A stretch of 64,000 nt of DNA from Candidatus Limnocylindrales bacterium. Its GTDB lineage: Bacteria > Chloroflexota > Limnocylindria > Limnocylindrales > CSP1-4. Below, piece after piece: positions 45,001 to 54,000 of the stretch. How positions within the stretch are numbered: position 1 is the first letter of the stretch; every line of letters begins with the position of its first letter. A program made the position numbers. The stretch lies in the NCBI GenBank assembly GCA_036570185.1, contig DATCPH010000076.1, positions 2,322 to 66,321 of the forward strand, read 5' to 3'.

Positions 45001-48000
45001 CCCGCGAGCGCAGCAAAGGCCGCGAGACCCGCGACGACGAGGACGAGCAGTGCGATGACGGCGACGCTGGCGGATACGCGGAACCCGCTGGATCGCGTGA
45101 GCCGGGTCTGACTGACGACCCGCTCATCTTGGGGCGGTGCCCCCCGGCGGGCAGCGACGGGACTGGCAATGGCAAGACGCGTGGTGGCGGTTCCCAGCAA
45201 CGCCGCGTCCGGATGCTCGGCCGTCGATCGCGCTCCTTCCGGTGCTGCCTCCGGCTCCCAGCCTTCGAGCGCCGTCGCGAGCTCCGCGGCGAACTGCCGC
45301 GCCGTCGGGCGAGACGCAGGATTCGGCGATAACGCCGCCTCGAGCGCGTTGTCGAAGCGCGTCCCGAGCTGAGGCGCTGCCGTCGAGACAGCCGGCAGCG
45401 GATCTGCGCGGGCTTCCACGATTGCCGCAATGGAGTCGGCCGGTCGCGGCCGCCTCCCGGTCAGCCCCTCGAACGTGAGCGCGGCGAGGCCGAAGACATC
45501 GGCCGGGGGCCCGGCGACCGCGCCTGTCAACGCCTCGGGCGCAAGATAGGCGAGCGTCCCGACGGTCGTTCCGACGGCAGTCAGACCGCTCATGGCAGTG
45601 AGGTCCGCCGACCGCGCCAAGCCGAAATCCGCGAGCTTCGGCCGGCCGCCCGAGAGCAGCACGTTGTGCGGCTTGACATCTCGGTGGACGATCCCGGCCT
45701 CGTGCAGTGCCGCGAGTCCCTCCGCGATCGCGACCACGAGTGGGATCAGCTCGTCGGGTGGAATCGGCCCGACGGCGAATCGATGGGCGAGCGAGCCGCC
45801 GTCGCAGAGCTCCATGACGAAGAACGGCTCATCGCCGGTGTCAGGGTTTCCCGGCTCGACGTCGTAGATCGCCACGATGTTGGGATGGCCGACCGACGCG
45901 AGCGCGCGCGCCTCACGCTCAAAGCGTTCGGCGAGAACCGGATCCCCGGCGAGATTGGGGGGCAGGATCTTGACCGCCACATCCCGGTCGAGGCGGAGGT
46001 CGTGGGCGCGATAGACCGTGCCCATCGCGCCGCCGCCGATCCGGTCATCGATGCGGTATCGGTCCGCGAGGACGTCCCCAGTCGCGGGCATAACACCGTG
46101 AGGGTAGGCGATCTCGGCAGCTTTTCGAATTGCGGGGCCTTGAACCGGATGTCATGCTCCCGGCAAATCCGTGGATGACTGGTTCTTCGACCTGCCCGTG
46201 CTTGCGATGGCGGCGATCATCATCGGCCTGACCGTCGCGACGACGGCCCTCGTCTGGGTGCTCGTCACTCGACTGGTGGCAAGCGAGCGCGGTCGGTTCG
46301 GCAGCGGAGTCTCGCCCGGGTTGCTACCCGTCCTAGGGATCGTCTTCGCGTTTCTTGCCGGGTTCATCGCGGTGGGCGTGTGGGGTGAGCTGGATCACGC
46401 TCGGACGGCGGTCACTGCCGAGGCCGGGGCCGTGCGCGATGCCGCCCTCTTGAGCTCCCCGTTCGACGCGGACACGCAGTCCAGGCTGCGAGACCTCCTC
46501 CGGCAGCACGTCCAACATGCCGCTACCGTCGAATGGCCGGCGATGGCCACGCAGTCACAGAGCCTGGCGCCTCCGGTGCCTCTGGTCGACGCGCTTCACC
46601 TCACCCTCGGCCTCGTCCCGGCGAACGACGGCCAGCGGGTCGCCCAACAGAAGGTCACCGAGGCGCTGCTGGCGGCCCTCGAGGCCCGCCGAGAACGGAT
46701 CCTCATCAGCCAGGGCGGCGTCAATGCCGTCAAATGGGCCGGGTTGATCGTGATTGCGATCATCGCCCTGGTCGGTATCGCGTTCGTCCACGCCGAAACG
46801 CCAGGGGCGGCGGCGGTCGCCATGACCCTGTTCGCAATCGGCGTGGCGCTGTCCTTGATCATGATCGCGTCGCACAACCGGCCGTTCAGCGGCGAATTGA
46901 GCATCCGGCCGGACTTCCTGCTCCAGGCGATCCCCGCGGCCCCTTCGTGACCGCAGCCGGCTGCCCCTGGCTGCCCGGAGGCTCTTCGGCGGGCCAAGCC
47001 TGTACAGTCGGCGGGATGACCGAGCACGATCCGGGATCTCCACCGAGCGGGGGCCTCGACTCCACGGAGGCGATCCAGGAGGCATTCCGCGCCCGCAGCT
47101 ACATCGCCGATCGGCCGCTCTCGACCGCGGTTTTCCTCGCGCTTCGGCTCGAACGGCCACTTCTGCTCGAGGGTGAAGCCGGCGTCGGCAAGACGGAGCT
47201 GGCCAAGGTCCTCGCTGCCTCGCTGGGCGCGCGCCTGATTCGCCTCCAGTGCTACGAGGGCCTCGACGTCAACAACGCGGTCTACGAGTGGAACTACCCA
47301 CGCCAGATGCTCGAGATCCGGCTCCTCGAAGCGCGTGGCGAGGCCGCGAAGGCGACGCCCCACGACATTTTTGGCCCAGAGTTCCTGATCCGGCGCCCGC
47401 TCCTGCAGGCGCTCGACAGCGATGGCACTGGTGTGGCCCCGGTTCTGCTCATCGACGAGATCGATCGTGCCGACGAGGAATTCGAGGCGTACCTGCTCGA
47501 GATCCTGTCCGATTTCCAGGTGACGGTGCCGGAGATCGGCACGATCCGGGCAGAGCATCCGCCGCGCGTCATCCTGACCTCGAATCGGACGCGGGAGGTC
47601 CACGACGCCCTCAAGCGCCGTTGCCTCTACCACTGGATCGACTACCCGACGCTCGAGAAGGAATACGAGATCGTCCTTGCCCGCGTGCCGGCCGCGCCCG
47701 CTCAGCTGGCTCGCGCAGTGGTCGCGTTCGTCCATCGGCTGCGCGAGGCCGACCTCACCAAGGTTCCCGGGATCGCCGAGACCCTTGACTGGGCCGCGGC
47801 ACTGCTTTCGCTCGGGGCGAGCCAGCTCTCGCCGGAGGTGATCGACGAGACGCTCGGCGTCGTCCTCAAGTACGAAGAGGACATCCGCCAGGTTCGCGGC
47901 GAGACGGTCCGCCGCTACCTCGCCGAGGCCGCTGCACGGGCGTGACCGGGCAAGTCCGGCGTGACCGAGCAAGTCCGGCGTGACCCCCCGATGACCCGCG

Positions 48001-51000: not shown

Positions 51001-54000
51001 CGAAGCGACGGGTGATCGCGGCTTGGGACCGATCGTGACCGGTCATCCTGAGCTCGTGCGAGAGGTCCTCGTTTCGGGCTCGAATCGGGACGTCGATACG
51101 CGTGCCGATCTCGCGATCCTGGCCGAAGAGGCCTGGGCCGAGCGTGTTCGAGCCAACCGCGAACAGGTCGAGCGCTTGCGTGAGGTCGCCGACGGCGCCG
51201 ACTTCTATCGAGGGGTCTCCTCGATCTTTCGGGCCGACCCATACCGCACCGATGACCCTGTCCTGGCCGGCCTCCTGCGTCTGGTGCGCCCGACGGACGT
51301 GGTCCTCGACATCGGCGCGGGAGCCGGTCGCTACGCGCTTCCGTTGGCGCTGGCCGTCCGCGAGGTCATCGCCCTCGACCCTTCGACCTCGATGCTCGAC
51401 GGCCTCCGCGAGGGGATGGACGAGTCCGCGATCCGAAACATCCAGCCGGTCCAGGCCCGCTGGCCGGCGGCCGCCCACGAGTTGGGCGCGCCGCCGATCG
51501 CGGACGTCGCCCTGATCGCCCACGTCGGCTACGACATCGAAGCGATCGGCCCCTTCCTCGACGCGCTGGAGCGTGCCGCCCACCGGCTGTGCGTGGCGGT
51601 CCTCATGGACCGGAGCCCGGCATCGATCGCCGAACCCTTCTGGGCCGACGTCCACGACGAGCCGCGGATCCCCTTACCGGCTCTGCCGGCGTTCGTCGAG
51701 CTGCTCGAGACGCGCAATTCACAGCCGGAGGTCCGCACGGTCGCCGCCGAACGGCGCCACTGGCACGGGCGCGAAGAGGTGGAGGCCTACCTGCGGCAGC
51801 AGACCTGGGTTTCCCCCGGAGGCGAGAAGGATCGCCGGCTGCATGCGGCGATCGACCGCCGGGCCCAGGTCGGTCAGGACGGCTCGATCTCGCTCGCGAC
51901 GGGTGCTGCCCTCAGGATCGGCATCGTGACCTGGTCGCCCCCCGAAATCGCGACCGAGAGCCGCTGACGCGGTGATGGAGCGTCTCGCGAGGGTCACCGG
52001 GCCGATCGCGACCAACGTCCACCTCCTTGCCGACCCAGGCTCACGTGAGGCAATCGCGATCGACACCGCCATTCCGTCGCTCGCCTGGATCAGCGACGAG
52101 CTCGCCGCCCGCGGCTGGACGCTCAGGTTCATCGTGTCGACACACGGCCATTGGGACCATATCGGCGACAACGCCCGCGTCGCCGAGCACACCGGCGCCG
52201 AGATCGCCGTCCATCCGCTCGACCGCGAGCGACTCACCGACCCGCAGCCGCTCTCGGCGCCCTTCGAGATCCCGCCATCCGTGCCCGCCGTGGACTTGGC
52301 CGAAGGCCGCGAGATCCGGTTCGGCGAGATCCGCCTTCGGGTCCTGCATACGCCCGGTCACACCGAAGGGTCGGTCTGCCTGTGGTCTGCCGACGATGGG
52401 CTCCTGTTCAGCGGCGACACCCTTTTCGCGGGCGGGTGGGGGAGGGTCGACCTGCCGGGCGGTTCTGCGGAGCAGATGGTGGACTCGCTCGCGCGCCTTG
52501 CCACCCTTGAGGACCATCTGACCGTCCTGCCCGGCCACGGCCCGACGACCACGATCGGGCGCGAGCGGGCGTGGATGGAGCTCGTTGCGAAGCAGCGCCG
52601 GCTACTGGCCTGATGTTTGGGACGCGAACCCGGCAGAGGTCTGGCTACCGTCCGAAACGGCCGGTGAGCGTCGCCTGACCCAGAATGTGGCCGCGCATGG
52701 CCGCCCGGATGTCCGCGGCAGGAGGGTCTCCGCTGAGTGAGATCGACGTGTCGAGGGCGAACAGGCTGAAGTCGTACCGGTGCACACCCGAGGGCGGGCA
52801 CGGGCCGCGCCAGCCGGCGCTGCCAAATGAATTCCTGCCCTCCGCGATCTCGGCTGAGCGCGCCGCGTTCTCCGGGAGAGCCGAGGAGTCGCCGGGCAGG
52901 TCGTAGGCGACCCAATGGACGAAGCCGCGCGCGTCCGGGTCGTCGACGATCAAGGCGAAGGAGGCGGTCCCGTCAGGTGCGCCCGACCACGCGAGCGGCG
53001 GCGACTGGTCCGCGCCGCTGCAGGTGTAGCGGGGCGGGATCAACCCACCCGCCTCGAAGGCGGCGCTCGAGAGCGTGAACCTGTCGATCGCCATTTGTGT
53101 CACCCCAGCCGGTTCACCGGCCCGTGCTTCCTCGAGCCATTGTGTCGAATCGTATGGCCTGGCCTCGGAAACGAATCGGCCTCCCAAGCGTCGAACCAGG
53201 CATCAGCGCGGCTGTCGGGTCCATGTGGCGCGTTTGCTTCGCGCACCTGCCGGCTCATGGTGCCAGACGAACCCGAGGACTACCATGATGTCGACCGGGT
53301 ATCTACGAGGGGCGCCCGCTCGATGGAGTAGGGAAAGCATGAGTCTGGACGTTGTCGGCAAGCTCGGCCGCGTCACCGCCGAGATCACTCCGGGTCATCT
53401 TGGCGAAGTGCTGATCGAAGTTCGCCAGGGCACCGAGCGTTTCATGGCACGGAGCGCAGATACCGGAGCCACGATCGCAAAGCACACCCAGGTACTCGTG
53501 GTCGGCAGCCTGGGCGGACGGACCGTGGAGGTCGCACCGACCGAGAGCATGAGGCTACCCCGATGATTCTCCCCGCGTTCGCCATCGTCATCGCCGCGAT
53601 CGTCGCCGCGATCGTCATCCTCTTCGCCCTGTTCAAGATGGCCTGGCGCGTGGCCGAGCCGGACGAGGCCCTGATCATCTCCGGGGTCCGCACGAGCCAC
53701 GTCGCTGGCGAGGGCATGGGCTTCAGCATCGTCACCGGGCGCGGAACGCTCGTCTTTCCAGGGATCACGAAGGTCCGCACCCTCTCGCTCGAAGCGCACG
53801 AGAGCGAGATCAGCGTGCCGTGCGTCAGCCAACAGAAGATCCGCGTCGACCTGCGCGGCATCGTCGTCTACAAGGTGGGCGATGACTATGCCTCGATCGC
53901 CAACGCCGCCCGCCGGTTCCTCGATCGACCGGCCGCCGAGCTCGAGACCAAGGTCCAGAACGTTCTCGTCGGCCATCTCCGAGCGATCGCGGGCTCGATC

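What the first reader, a model, noticed from the sequence alone, without database searches (positions are those of the whole stretch)
47016..51967. Mo-cofactor (MCD-type) maturation cluster CoxD-CoxE-XdhC-MocA with no structural molybdoenzyme nearby, and a MocA-methyltransferase fusion
CoxD (a MoxR-type AAA+), CoxE (vWA), an XdhC/CoxF-like insertase and a MocA-like cytidylyltransferase are exactly the accessory set needed to build and insert the sulfurated MCD cofactor of xanthine-dehydrogenase-family enzymes, such as CO dehydrogenase CoxMSL or aldehyde oxidoreductases. No large, medium or small subunit genes lie within 15 kb on either side; the flanks are a DUF4239 membrane protein and an MBL hydrolase.

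The MocA domain (residues 1 to about 200, 'LILAAGASSRFGTPKAL') is fused to a C-terminal class I SAM methyltransferase domain ('VLDIGAGAGRYALPLA'). To my knowledge this fusion is not a described architecture for MocA/MobA. It suggests a modified cofactor, or a second methylation step tied to cofactor assembly.
Basis: partly seen in the sequence, partly recalled or inferred. Interest (0 to 1): 0.6.

Follow-up and report, generated by a model that had tools for sequence, protein, structure and literature searches.

The report
MocA–methyltransferase fusion in stripped CODH maturation operon
This is a real, intact operon of helper genes that build and insert the molybdenum cofactor of CO-dehydrogenase-type enzymes in an uncultured Chloroflexota lineage; the enzyme genes it normally sits between are missing here, and it carries a conserved but uncharacterised methyltransferase fused to the cofactor-making enzyme MocA.

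Summary
Both observations are confirmed. Window 47016-52613 (+) is a tightly packed operon: coxD (MoxR-type AAA+), coxE (VWA_CoxE), xdhC, a 474-aa MocA::class I SAM-methyltransferase (MT) fusion, and an MBL-fold hydrolase. No xanthine-dehydrogenase-family subunit gene lies anywhere in the 64 kb.

The fusion is not a frameshift. The identical protein is encoded in four independent assemblies, and the best 120 homologues listed are all full length.

Comparative genomics explains the "orphan" state. The source is a Candidatus Limnocylindrales MAG. In relatives the same module lies between a form II coxS-L-M operon (AYRGAGR) and a form I coxM-S-L operon (AYRCSFR), followed by coxG and the MBL gene. 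Of 31 loci with at least 9 kb on both sides, 8 have both enzyme sets, 6 form II only, 7 form I only, and 10 neither (this window included).

In 26 loci mocA and the MT are separate adjacent genes, many with 4-nt stop/start overlaps. In 48 they are fused. This is a natural gene fusion. The MT always accompanies mocA, not one particular enzyme.

The MT substrate is unknown. A methylated cofactor remains a hypothesis. I found no paper describing this pairing.

Verdict: a new variant of a known maturation system, of moderate interest.

The parts
47016..47945 (+). coxD: MoxR-type AAA+ ATPase, 309 aa. Walker A is at 47172-47195 and Walker B at 47445-47471.
   Evidence: Pfam AAA_5, AAA and AAA_3. NCBIfam MadB-type 276 bits, below the cut-off of 475. 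82% identical to the CoxD of full cox operon L001. dN/dS 0.065 against L092.
47961..49376 (+). coxE: VWA-domain partner of CoxD, 471 aa from GTG 47961. NCBI aa from ATG 47991.
   Evidence: Pfam VWA_CoxE 1.2e-60, 205 bits. 75% identical to L001 CoxE. dN/dS 0.13. Start alternatives are shown.
49387..50541 (+). xdhC/coxF-type Moco chaperone, 384 aa.
   Evidence: Pfam XdhC_CoxI plus XdhC_C. NCBIfam XdhC_rel_AOR 170 bits and TIGR02964 73 bits, both below their cut-offs. dN/dS 0.16.
50543..51967 (+). mocA::methyltransferase fusion gene, 474 aa. It starts 1 nt after the xdhC stop codon.
   Evidence: Single ORF. Identical product in 4 assemblies. The 120 best homologues listed are full length at 55-100% identity. 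AF2 pLDDT 90.6, pTM 0.86.
50543..51112 (+). MocA/MobA-like nucleotidyltransferase domain (residues 1-190). The nucleotide-binding loop LAAGASSRFGTPK is at 50564-50602.
   Evidence: NTP_transf_3 121 bits. TIGR03310 MocA 103 bits, covering profile positions 2-184 of 188. Foldseek to Rv0371c, 2wee, TMt 0.87, 32% identity. The loop residues are invariant in 58 sequences.
51125..51967 (+). Class I SAM-methyltransferase domain with an N-terminal helix and a C-terminal cap (residues 195-474). Motif I VLDIGAGAGR is at 51302-51331. The acidic end of strand 2 (IALDPS) is at 51368-51385.
51972..52613 (+). MBL-fold hydrolase of the GloB/YcbL type (HGHWDH at 52143-52160). It starts 4-7 nt after the fusion stop codon and is the probable last gene of the operon.
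   Evidence: Lactamase_B 109 bits. Closest PDB sequence match is 2xf4, hydroxyacylglutathione hydrolase, 4e-30. An orthologue is present downstream, after coxG, in 31 of 38 relatives with at least 9 kb downstream.

Best explanation
Window 47016-52613 is an intact, co-transcribed maturation module for molybdenum hydroxylases of the CO-dehydrogenase type, specific to Candidatus Limnocylindrales (Chloroflexota). Its gene order is coxD-coxE-xdhC-mocA::MT-MBL.

Expected roles, from what is known of the families:
- The MocA domain adds CMP to Mo-molybdopterin to give the MCD cofactor.
- XdhC holds the cofactor for sulfuration and inserts it into the apo-enzyme.
- The CoxD AAA+ ATPase and its VWA partner CoxE drive the sulfur and copper steps at the active site.

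In relatives this module sits between a form II coxS-L-M operon and a form I coxM-S-L operon. In this genome, and in about a third of related loci, both enzyme sets are missing from the locus. The module must therefore act in trans on enzymes encoded elsewhere. This step is inferred, not shown.

The methyltransferase began as a standalone Chloroflexota enzyme. It was recruited as a separate, translationally coupled gene directly after mocA, and was then fused to it in one subclade, which includes this window. It keeps an intact SAM-binding site.

Because it always travels with mocA, whichever enzyme genes are nearby, its most likely role is a SAM-dependent step at the cofactor level, on MCD, its precursor or the XdhC-bound cofactor. 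This is an inference, at about 35% within this explanation, and the target atom is unknown.
For: Domain content and tight spacing, with gaps of 15, 10, 1 and 4 nt.

The source is a Limnocylindrales MAG, and the same arrangement occurs in four assemblies.

Full operons in relatives run coxS, coxL (AYRGAGR), coxM, MoCF_biosynth, coxD, coxE, xdhC, fusion. A form I coxMSL (AYRCSFR), an XdhC-like gene, coxG and the MBL gene lie downstream.

Counts over 74 non-redundant loci:
- CoxD is present upstream in 42 of 47, CoxE in 46 of 47 and XdhC in 45 of 47.
- The enzyme sets nearby are II+I in 8, II only in 6, I only in 7 and none in 10, of 31 fully flanked loci.

Fusion state is 48 fused, 26 split and 9 standalone. 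Split pairs show ATGA or GTGA stop/start overlaps. The standalone forms branch at the base of the MT tree.

Purifying selection holds in the accessory-only pair, window against L092. dN/dS is 0.065 for coxD, 0.13 for coxE, 0.16 for xdhC and 0.38 for the fusion.

All 76 positions invariant among the 58 aligned fusions, which include this protein, cover both active-site motifs.

Fold evidence is Rv0371c for the N-domain and class I MTases for the C-domain.

xdhC-mocA operons remote from structural genes have precedent, with a proposed shared role for several enzymes (PMC2997495). CoxD, CoxE and CoxF roles are described in PMC4240915.
Against: No client enzyme gene was found in 64 kb, and I could not search the rest of the genome.

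The fusion gene's dN/dS (0.38) is clearly higher than in a pair with the full operon (0.15). It may be under relaxed constraint here.

All equivalog-level NCBIfam scores (MocA, XdhC, MadB, MadC) fall below their cut-offs. Exact biochemical roles are therefore extrapolated.

To my knowledge no methylated MCD or Moco is known. Other CODH-bearing organisms manage without this MT.

Distant standalone relatives of the MT have no Moco context.
Confidence: 0.7

Rival explanations
1. The methyltransferase is active, but its target is not the cofactor. It might methylate a protein (the apo-enzyme or a maturation factor), or an unrelated small molecule such as a sulfur by-product of the sulfuration step. 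On this view the fusion only secures co-expression or co-localisation with the maturation machinery.
Against: Adjacency to or fusion with mocA specifically, rather than with xdhC, coxD/E or a structural gene, holds in all 74 loci. The fold is of the small-molecule type with a cap, not a typical protein MTase.
Confidence: 0.3
2. The MT domain is a non-catalytic SAM-binding or docking module. It would act as an adaptor that tethers MocA to XdhC or to the apo-enzyme, or that senses SAM, much as MobB is fused to MobA in some bacteria.
For: Accessory-domain fusions to MobA-type transferases exist, for example the NCBIfam bifunctional MobA/MobB model listed. The Pfam MT score is marginal (30.6 against 27). 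pTM 0.86 suggests rigid packing of the two domains.
Against: Motif I, the acidic strand-2 residue and the HVGYD segment after strand 4 are invariant or nearly so across 58 fused sequences. They are largely kept in homologues of 30-50% identity. That pattern fits a working active site.
Confidence: 0.15
3. The cluster is an evolutionary leftover. The structural genes were deleted from the genome and the accessory genes are on their way to decay.
For: No structural gene lies in 64 kb. The fusion gene's dN/dS is raised to 0.38, against 0.15 in a full-operon pair.
Against: All five ORFs are intact here and in the 88%-identical relative L092, which has the same stripped arrangement. coxD, coxE and xdhC have dN/dS of 0.07-0.16. 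Ten of 31 loci from different species share the state, which would not be expected of transient decay.
Confidence: 0.12
4. The fusion is a sequencing or assembly frameshift that joins two separate genes.
For: In 26 related loci the two halves are separate genes.
Against: The identical 474-aa ORF occurs in four independent assemblies. Forty-eight fused loci form an almost pure clade. In the AF2 model a single continuous helix (residues 187-212) spans the junction.
Confidence: 0.01

Closest known systems
Oligotropha carboxidovorans cox cluster (coxMSL-coxDEFG), the model system for Mo-Cu CODH maturation (PMC4240915, PMC3471820)
   Same: A MoxR-type AAA+ CoxD is followed by VWA CoxE and an XdhC-like protein. 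In relatives of the window these lie next to form I coxMSL and coxG.
   Different: The window has no structural genes and no coxG. mocA is part of the module. A SAM-methyltransferase and an MBL hydrolase are added. In relatives a form II coxSLM operon lies upstream.
Stand-alone xdhC-mocA operons (O. carboxidovorans chromosome; Arthrobacter nicotinovorans pAO1), reviewed in PMC2997495
   Same: The Moco chaperone and the cytidylyltransferase are co-transcribed away from, or shared between, the molybdoenzyme genes.
   Different: Those operons have no CoxD/CoxE pair and no methyltransferase, fused or adjacent.
Rv0371c of Mycobacterium tuberculosis (PDB 2wee, 2we9), and its Mycobacterium sp. JC1 homologue (PDB 2waw)
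   Same: It is the best structural match of the N-terminal domain (TMt 0.87, 32% identity). From my own knowledge, not checked here, Rv0371c is the MobA-like protein of the mycobacterial cox cluster.
   Different: Rv0371c is a single-domain protein of about 190 aa with no methyltransferase.
TTHA0223 (2yqz), YcgJ (1xxl) and TmtA (5egp): UbiE/COQ5-like class I SAM methyltransferases
   Different: Sequence identity is only 12-20%. The N-terminal helix (AWAERVRANREQV) and the cap are family-specific. None of these proteins is linked to Moco.
Bifunctional MobA/MobB (NCBIfam NF011056)
   Same: A molybdopterin nucleotidyltransferase is fused to an accessory domain of the same pathway.
   Different: The partner domain there is a P-loop adaptor, not a methyltransferase, and the cofactor made is MGD, not MCD.

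Membership tests
MocA (CTP:molybdopterin cytidylyltransferase; PF12804 / TIGR03310) | A complete MobA-like nucleotidyltransferase fold of about 190 aa | tested here: met
   NTP_transf_3 scores 121 bits against a cut-off of 27. TIGR03310 aligns over profile positions 2-184 of 188. Foldseek TMt is 0.87 to Rv0371c.
MocA (CTP:molybdopterin cytidylyltransferase; PF12804 / TIGR03310) | Equivalog-level score to the curated MocA/YgfJ model | tested here: not met
   102.9 bits against a cut-off of 186.45. The best NCBIfam hit, DVU_1551-type, is also below its cut-off (108.8 against 315).
MocA (CTP:molybdopterin cytidylyltransferase; PF12804 / TIGR03310) | N-terminal glycine-rich nucleotide-binding loop | tested here: met
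   LAAGASSRFGTPK is at residues 8-20. L8, A9, A10, G11, R15, F16, G17 and K20 are invariant in 58 sequences.
MocA (CTP:molybdopterin cytidylyltransferase; PF12804 / TIGR03310) | CTP specificity and formation of MCD from Mo-MPT | not testable with these tools
   This needs an enzyme assay. It is inferred from the association with CODH/XDH-family operons in relatives.
Class I SAM-dependent methyltransferase | Rossmann-like seven-strand fold | tested here: met
Class I SAM-dependent methyltransferase | Motif I (D/E)xGxGxG and an acidic residue at the end of strand 2 | tested here: met
   VLDIGAGAGR, with D256, G258, G260 and G262 invariant. IALDPS has D or E at position 279 in the aligned sequences shown.
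Class I SAM-dependent methyltransferase | Pfam gathering score | tested here: met
   Methyltransf_25 scores 30.6 against 27, which is marginal. Standalone homologues score higher, for example Methyltransf_11 at 48.9 bits.
Class I SAM-dependent methyltransferase | SAM binding, methyl transfer and identity of the substrate | not testable with these tools
   No informative characterised close relative exists. The best PDB sequence hit has E = 0.0017.
CoxD (MoxR-type AAA+ of CODH maturation) | AAA+ core with Walker A and B, paired with a downstream VWA_CoxE gene | tested here: met
   AAA_5, AAA and AAA_3 hits, with GEAGVGKT and LLIDEIDRA. coxE starts 15 nt downstream.
CoxD (MoxR-type AAA+ of CODH maturation) | Encoded in a cluster with coxMSL structural genes | tested here: not met
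   None are in the window. The feature is met for orthologues of 76-93% identity in relatives.
CoxE (PF05762 VWA_CoxE) | VWA_CoxE domain above the gathering score | tested here: met
   205 bits against a cut-off of 26.4.
XdhC/CoxF/CoxI Moco chaperone | XdhC_CoxI N-domain plus XdhC_C Rossmann domain | tested here: met
   73.6 and 134.4 bits, both above their cut-offs.
XdhC/CoxF/CoxI Moco chaperone | Equivalog-level match to the XdhC or AOR-maturation XdhC models | tested here: not met
   TIGR02964 scores 73 against 161.6. NF045664 scores 170 against 350.
Complete aerobic CODH (cox) gene cluster | Large, medium and small subunit genes with the form I AYXCSFR or form II AYRGAGR loop | tested here: not met
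   Absent from all 64 kb (plus the Pfam scans). Present in relatives L001, L004, L013 and others.

The most novel reading that the evidence does not exclude
The MocA-linked methyltransferase adds a methyl group to the molybdopterin cytosine dinucleotide cofactor or to its immediate precursor. Limnocylindrales CO dehydrogenases and related Mo-hydroxylases would then carry a chemically new, methylated form of the molybdenum cofactor, and the fusion protein would be a two-step cofactor-tailoring enzyme.
Probability: 0.2. Interest if true: 0.8.

Novelty: new variant of a known kind. Interest (0 to 1): 0.5.

Why it matters
Aerobic CO dehydrogenases and their form II relatives are major sinks for atmospheric trace gas. 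Limnocylindria, to my knowledge, are abundant in soils and fresh waters and are uncultured.

Maturation of the Mo (Mo-Cu) site is understood in essentially one model organism, and no SAM-dependent step is part of that model. A methyltransferase that is first translationally coupled to MocA and then fused to it, across many species, is classic gene-fusion evidence for a shared pathway. It points to an undescribed step or factor in cofactor maturation.

The hypothesis is directly testable with one recombinant protein. The locus also shows that the maturation module is kept as a unit while the enzyme genes come and go around it. This is relevant when CO-oxidation potential is inferred from MAGs by gene neighbourhood.

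Tried and rejected
- **Frameshift or assembly artefact.** Rejected: identical ORF in four assemblies.
Rejected for the whole window by tblastn and by Pfam scans of the other large ORFs.
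- **Moco riboswitch or other RNA element.** No Rfam hit at gathering score.
- **Promoter and terminator scan.** Uninformative in this 70% GC genome.
- **Context of standalone MT homologues, as a clue to the substrate.**
  - The neighbours are an FbiC-like radical-SAM gene, HxlR, CoaE and a CbbQ-type AAA gene.
  - Other loci show DAO, PEP_mutase and luciferase-like genes.
  - No consistent theme and no Moco link emerged.
- **Sequence search of the MT domain against PDB.** Only motif I matches, best E = 0.0017.
- **Fold searches.** They give only generic class I MTases.
- **AFDB50 fold search.** The library was unavailable.
- **Wide 48-sequence alignment as a query for genome contigs.** Too divergent. 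A 13-sequence subset worked.
- **Literature.** Searches for a MocA-methyltransferase pairing, or for XdhC + MocA + SAM-MTase, found nothing relevant. Limnocylindria with CODH or coxL appear together in only three papers, none listing either term in its title or abstract, and I did not read them.
- **Inspecting the two active sites in the AF2 model for a shared channel.** Not possible, because model coordinates are not exposed to the scripting tool.

Full report
**1. What is in the window**

The window is about 70% GC. On the + strand, 47016-52613 holds five closely spaced ORFs:
- coxD, 47016-47945.
- coxE, 47961 (or 47991)-49376.
- xdhC, 49387-50541.
- A 474-aa ORF, 50543-51967.
- An MBL-fold gene, 51972-52613.

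The intergenic gaps are 15, 10, 1 and 4 nt.

Pfam gives these assignments:
- AAA_5/AAA for the first gene.
- VWA_CoxE (205 bits) for the second.
- XdhC_CoxI plus XdhC_C for the third.
- NTP_transf_3 (residues 5-166, 121 bits) plus Methyltransf_25 (residues 254-306, 30.6 bits) for the fourth.
- Lactamase_B for the fifth.

The upstream flank, 46171-46950, is PF14023 (Bestrophin-like, formerly DUF4239).

NCBIfam places the proteins near MadB/MadC, XdhC and MocA models, but always below the equivalog cut-offs.

**2. No structural genes in 64 kb**

tblastn with CoxS, CoxL and CoxM taken from a relative finds nothing in the window at E <= 1e-3. Pfam scans of the other large ORFs show these unrelated functions:
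- A giant GH94-type ORF.
- A MoxR-DUF58-VWA trio.
- A glycerol-utilisation cluster.
- A LuxR-type regulator.
- carB.
- M16 peptidases.
- SRAP.
- A rhomboid protease.
- A Ser/Thr kinase.
- PEBP.
- Flotillin.
- TelA.
- An ABC-2 exporter.

No Rfam family, and so no Moco riboswitch, is present.

**3. The fusion is real**

The protein is 100% identical to one from a Candidatus Limnocylindrales MAG. The best 120 homologues are all 457-518 aa, cover 96-100% of the query at 55-88% identity, and carry both domains. IMG names some of them "MocA/SAM-dependent methyltransferase". The identical ORF, in the same neighbourhood, is called in four independent assemblies.

An alignment of 58 fused sequences has 76 invariant positions. 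These include the nucleotide loop (L8, A9, A10, G11, R15, F16, G17, K20) and SAM motif I (D256, G258, G260, G262).

AlphaFold2 gives pLDDT 90.6 and pTM 0.86, with one continuous helix (residues 187-212) across the junction.
- The N-domain matches M. tuberculosis Rv0371c (TMt 0.87).

**4. Why the cluster looks orphaned**

In relatives with long contigs the fusion gene is the last gene of a full operon: coxS, coxL, coxM, MoCF_biosynth, coxD, coxE, xdhC, fusion (L001, L004, L093). The CoxL there carries the form II loop AYRGAGR.

A scan of one genome per species returned at least 199 matching loci, nearly all Chloroflexota/Limnocylindrales, and 80 were fetched. tblastn mapping of these shows a lineage-wide supercluster:

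[coxS-coxL(form II)-coxM-MoCF] - coxD-coxE-xdhC-mocA-MT-(AF_2407) - [coxM-coxS-coxL(form I, AYRCSFR)-xdhC-like] - coxG-MBL.

Counts over 74 non-redundant loci with mocA plus MT:
- CoxD is upstream in 42 of 47, CoxE in 46 of 47 and XdhC in 45 of 47.
- coxG is downstream in 30 of 38 and the MBL gene in 31 of 38.
- Of 31 loci with at least 9 kb on both sides, 8 have both enzyme sets, 6 form II only, 7 form I only and 10 neither.

The window belongs to the last class. Its MBL "flank" is the conserved end of the supercluster. The Bestrophin-like gene is not conserved.

An 88%-identical relative (L092) has the same stripped arrangement with a different upstream flank. Stand-alone xdhC-mocA operons, possibly serving several enzymes, are already described (PMC2997495).

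**5. Is the stripped module alive?**

dN/dS values for the two comparisons:

| Gene | Window vs L092 (accessory-only pair) | L001 vs L004 (full-operon pair) |
|---|---|---|
| coxD | 0.065 | 0.08 |
| coxE | 0.13 | not computed |
| xdhC | 0.16 | 0.14 |
| fusion | 0.38 (MocA part 0.33, MT part 0.44) | 0.15 |

The chaperone and ATPase genes are strongly constrained in both pairs. The fusion gene is intact and keeps the conserved residues, but it evolves faster where no enzyme genes are adjacent. A decaying relic is therefore unlikely, but it is not excluded for the fusion gene.

**6. Origin of the fusion**

Of 85 loci, 48 are fused, 26 have mocA and the MT as separate adjacent genes, 9 have the MT alone and 2 are truncated.

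The split pairs show conserved stops and starts, often overlapping by 4 nt (ATGA or GTGA). Clade-specific tails such as "...DVS*" followed by "MTTATAAELEA..." recur in independent assemblies. They are therefore real two-gene arrangements.

In a neighbour-joining tree of the MT domain, the standalone proteins (Dehalococcoidia, Tepidiformaceae and others) are basal. The split forms make up two clades. The fused forms make up one large clade with a few exceptions. The likely history is standalone MT, then recruitment behind mocA, then fusion.

An exhaustive profile search finds 1546 representatives at E <= 1e-3 and 124 at E <= 1e-30. These include many standalone proteins of 272-300 aa that align over the whole domain and are clear class I MTases by Pfam. 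Their neighbourhoods carry no Moco genes and share no theme.

**7. Mechanism**

These parts rest on established knowledge of the families:
- MocA makes MCD from Mo-MPT and CTP, and XdhC-type proteins hold the cofactor and insert it (PMC2997495).
- CoxD drives ATP-dependent sulfuration.
- CoxE with an XdhC-like CoxF supplies copper in O. carboxidovorans (PMC4240915).

Shown here: the window encodes orthologues of those components. The same orthologues sit in cox operons in relatives.

Inferred: in this genome they act in trans on enzymes encoded elsewhere.

For the methyltransferase, the evidence is the intact SAM site and its strict linkage to mocA whichever enzyme genes are nearby. This favours a cofactor-level role (about 35%) over the following:
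- Another target, such as a protein or a thiol by-product (about 30%).
- A non-catalytic adaptor (about 15%).
- A relic (about 12%).

To my knowledge no methylated MCD is known, and I could not inspect the model coordinates for a shared channel.

**8. Novelty and verdict**

The maturation module and its separation from structural genes are known themes. The new element is the conserved MocA-methyltransferase partnership, adjacent and then fused, together with a conserved MBL gene, in an abundant uncultured lineage. I found no literature on this pairing.

I rate it a new variant of a known kind, with interest 0.5. The most novel reading, a methylated molybdenum cofactor, has a probability of about 0.2.

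Noticed in passing
window 7934-11153 (+): A second, unrelated MoxR-VWA system: an AAA_3 MoxR ATPase, a DUF58 protein and a VWA_2 protein in a row (Bat/aerotolerance-type operon). It should not be confused with CoxD/CoxE.
   Followed up: partly
window 60613-64000 (+): A 502-aa ORF with a weak AAA_5 match is followed by an ORF of at least 658 aa with no Pfam match that runs off the end of the window. This may be a third AAA-partner pair.
   Followed up: no
window 2-7132 (-): A giant ORF of at least 2377 aa with GH94 supersandwich and glucoamylase-type domains (a cyclic-glucan synthase or phosphorylase type). It is cut by the start of the window.
   Followed up: no
window 13606-25712 (-): A glycerol-utilisation cluster. 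It holds two GlpP-like antiterminator ORFs, an MIP channel, Dak1/Dak2/EIIA-man (DhaKLM), an FGGY kinase, and DAO+BFD, FAD_binding_2 and CCG proteins (GlpABC-like).
   Followed up: partly
L001 17780-21214 (also L018): The form I coxL (AYRCSFR) reads through into an XdhC-like region that ends in a YHS domain (1144 aa). The middle of this ORF looks frameshifted. In other loci coxL and the XdhC-like gene are separate. From memory, YHS is a copper-binding-type domain, which would suit a CoxF-like copper donor.
   Followed up: partly
L001 11392-11586; L004 11391-11600; L012 3050-3244; L014 6044-6229: A small ORF of 64-69 aa of family AF_2407 (PF27302) lies directly after the fusion gene in some relatives. 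It is absent from the window, where the MBL gene follows at once.
   Followed up: no
window 51972-52613 and relatives (for example L019 10690-11322, L065 6091-6726): The GloB/YcbL-like MBL hydrolase follows coxG by only about 10-30 nt in several relatives (for example L019 and L065). It is present downstream in 31 of 38 loci. Its role in a CODH cluster is unknown; thiol or persulfide handling is one speculation.
   Followed up: partly
window 50543-51967 against L092 5669-7093: The fusion gene evolves faster (dN/dS 0.38) in the accessory-only lineage than in a lineage with the full operon (0.15, L001 against L004). coxD, coxE and xdhC stay at 0.07-0.16.
   Followed up: partly
L086 10806-13547 (-), L073, L085: Standalone relatives of the methyltransferase in Dehalococcoidia-type genomes lie back to back with a 913-aa radical-SAM/CofH_C gene, which looks like an FbiC-type F420 (FO) synthase. 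A conserved ORF of about 130 aa with no Pfam match lies just upstream.
   Followed up: partly
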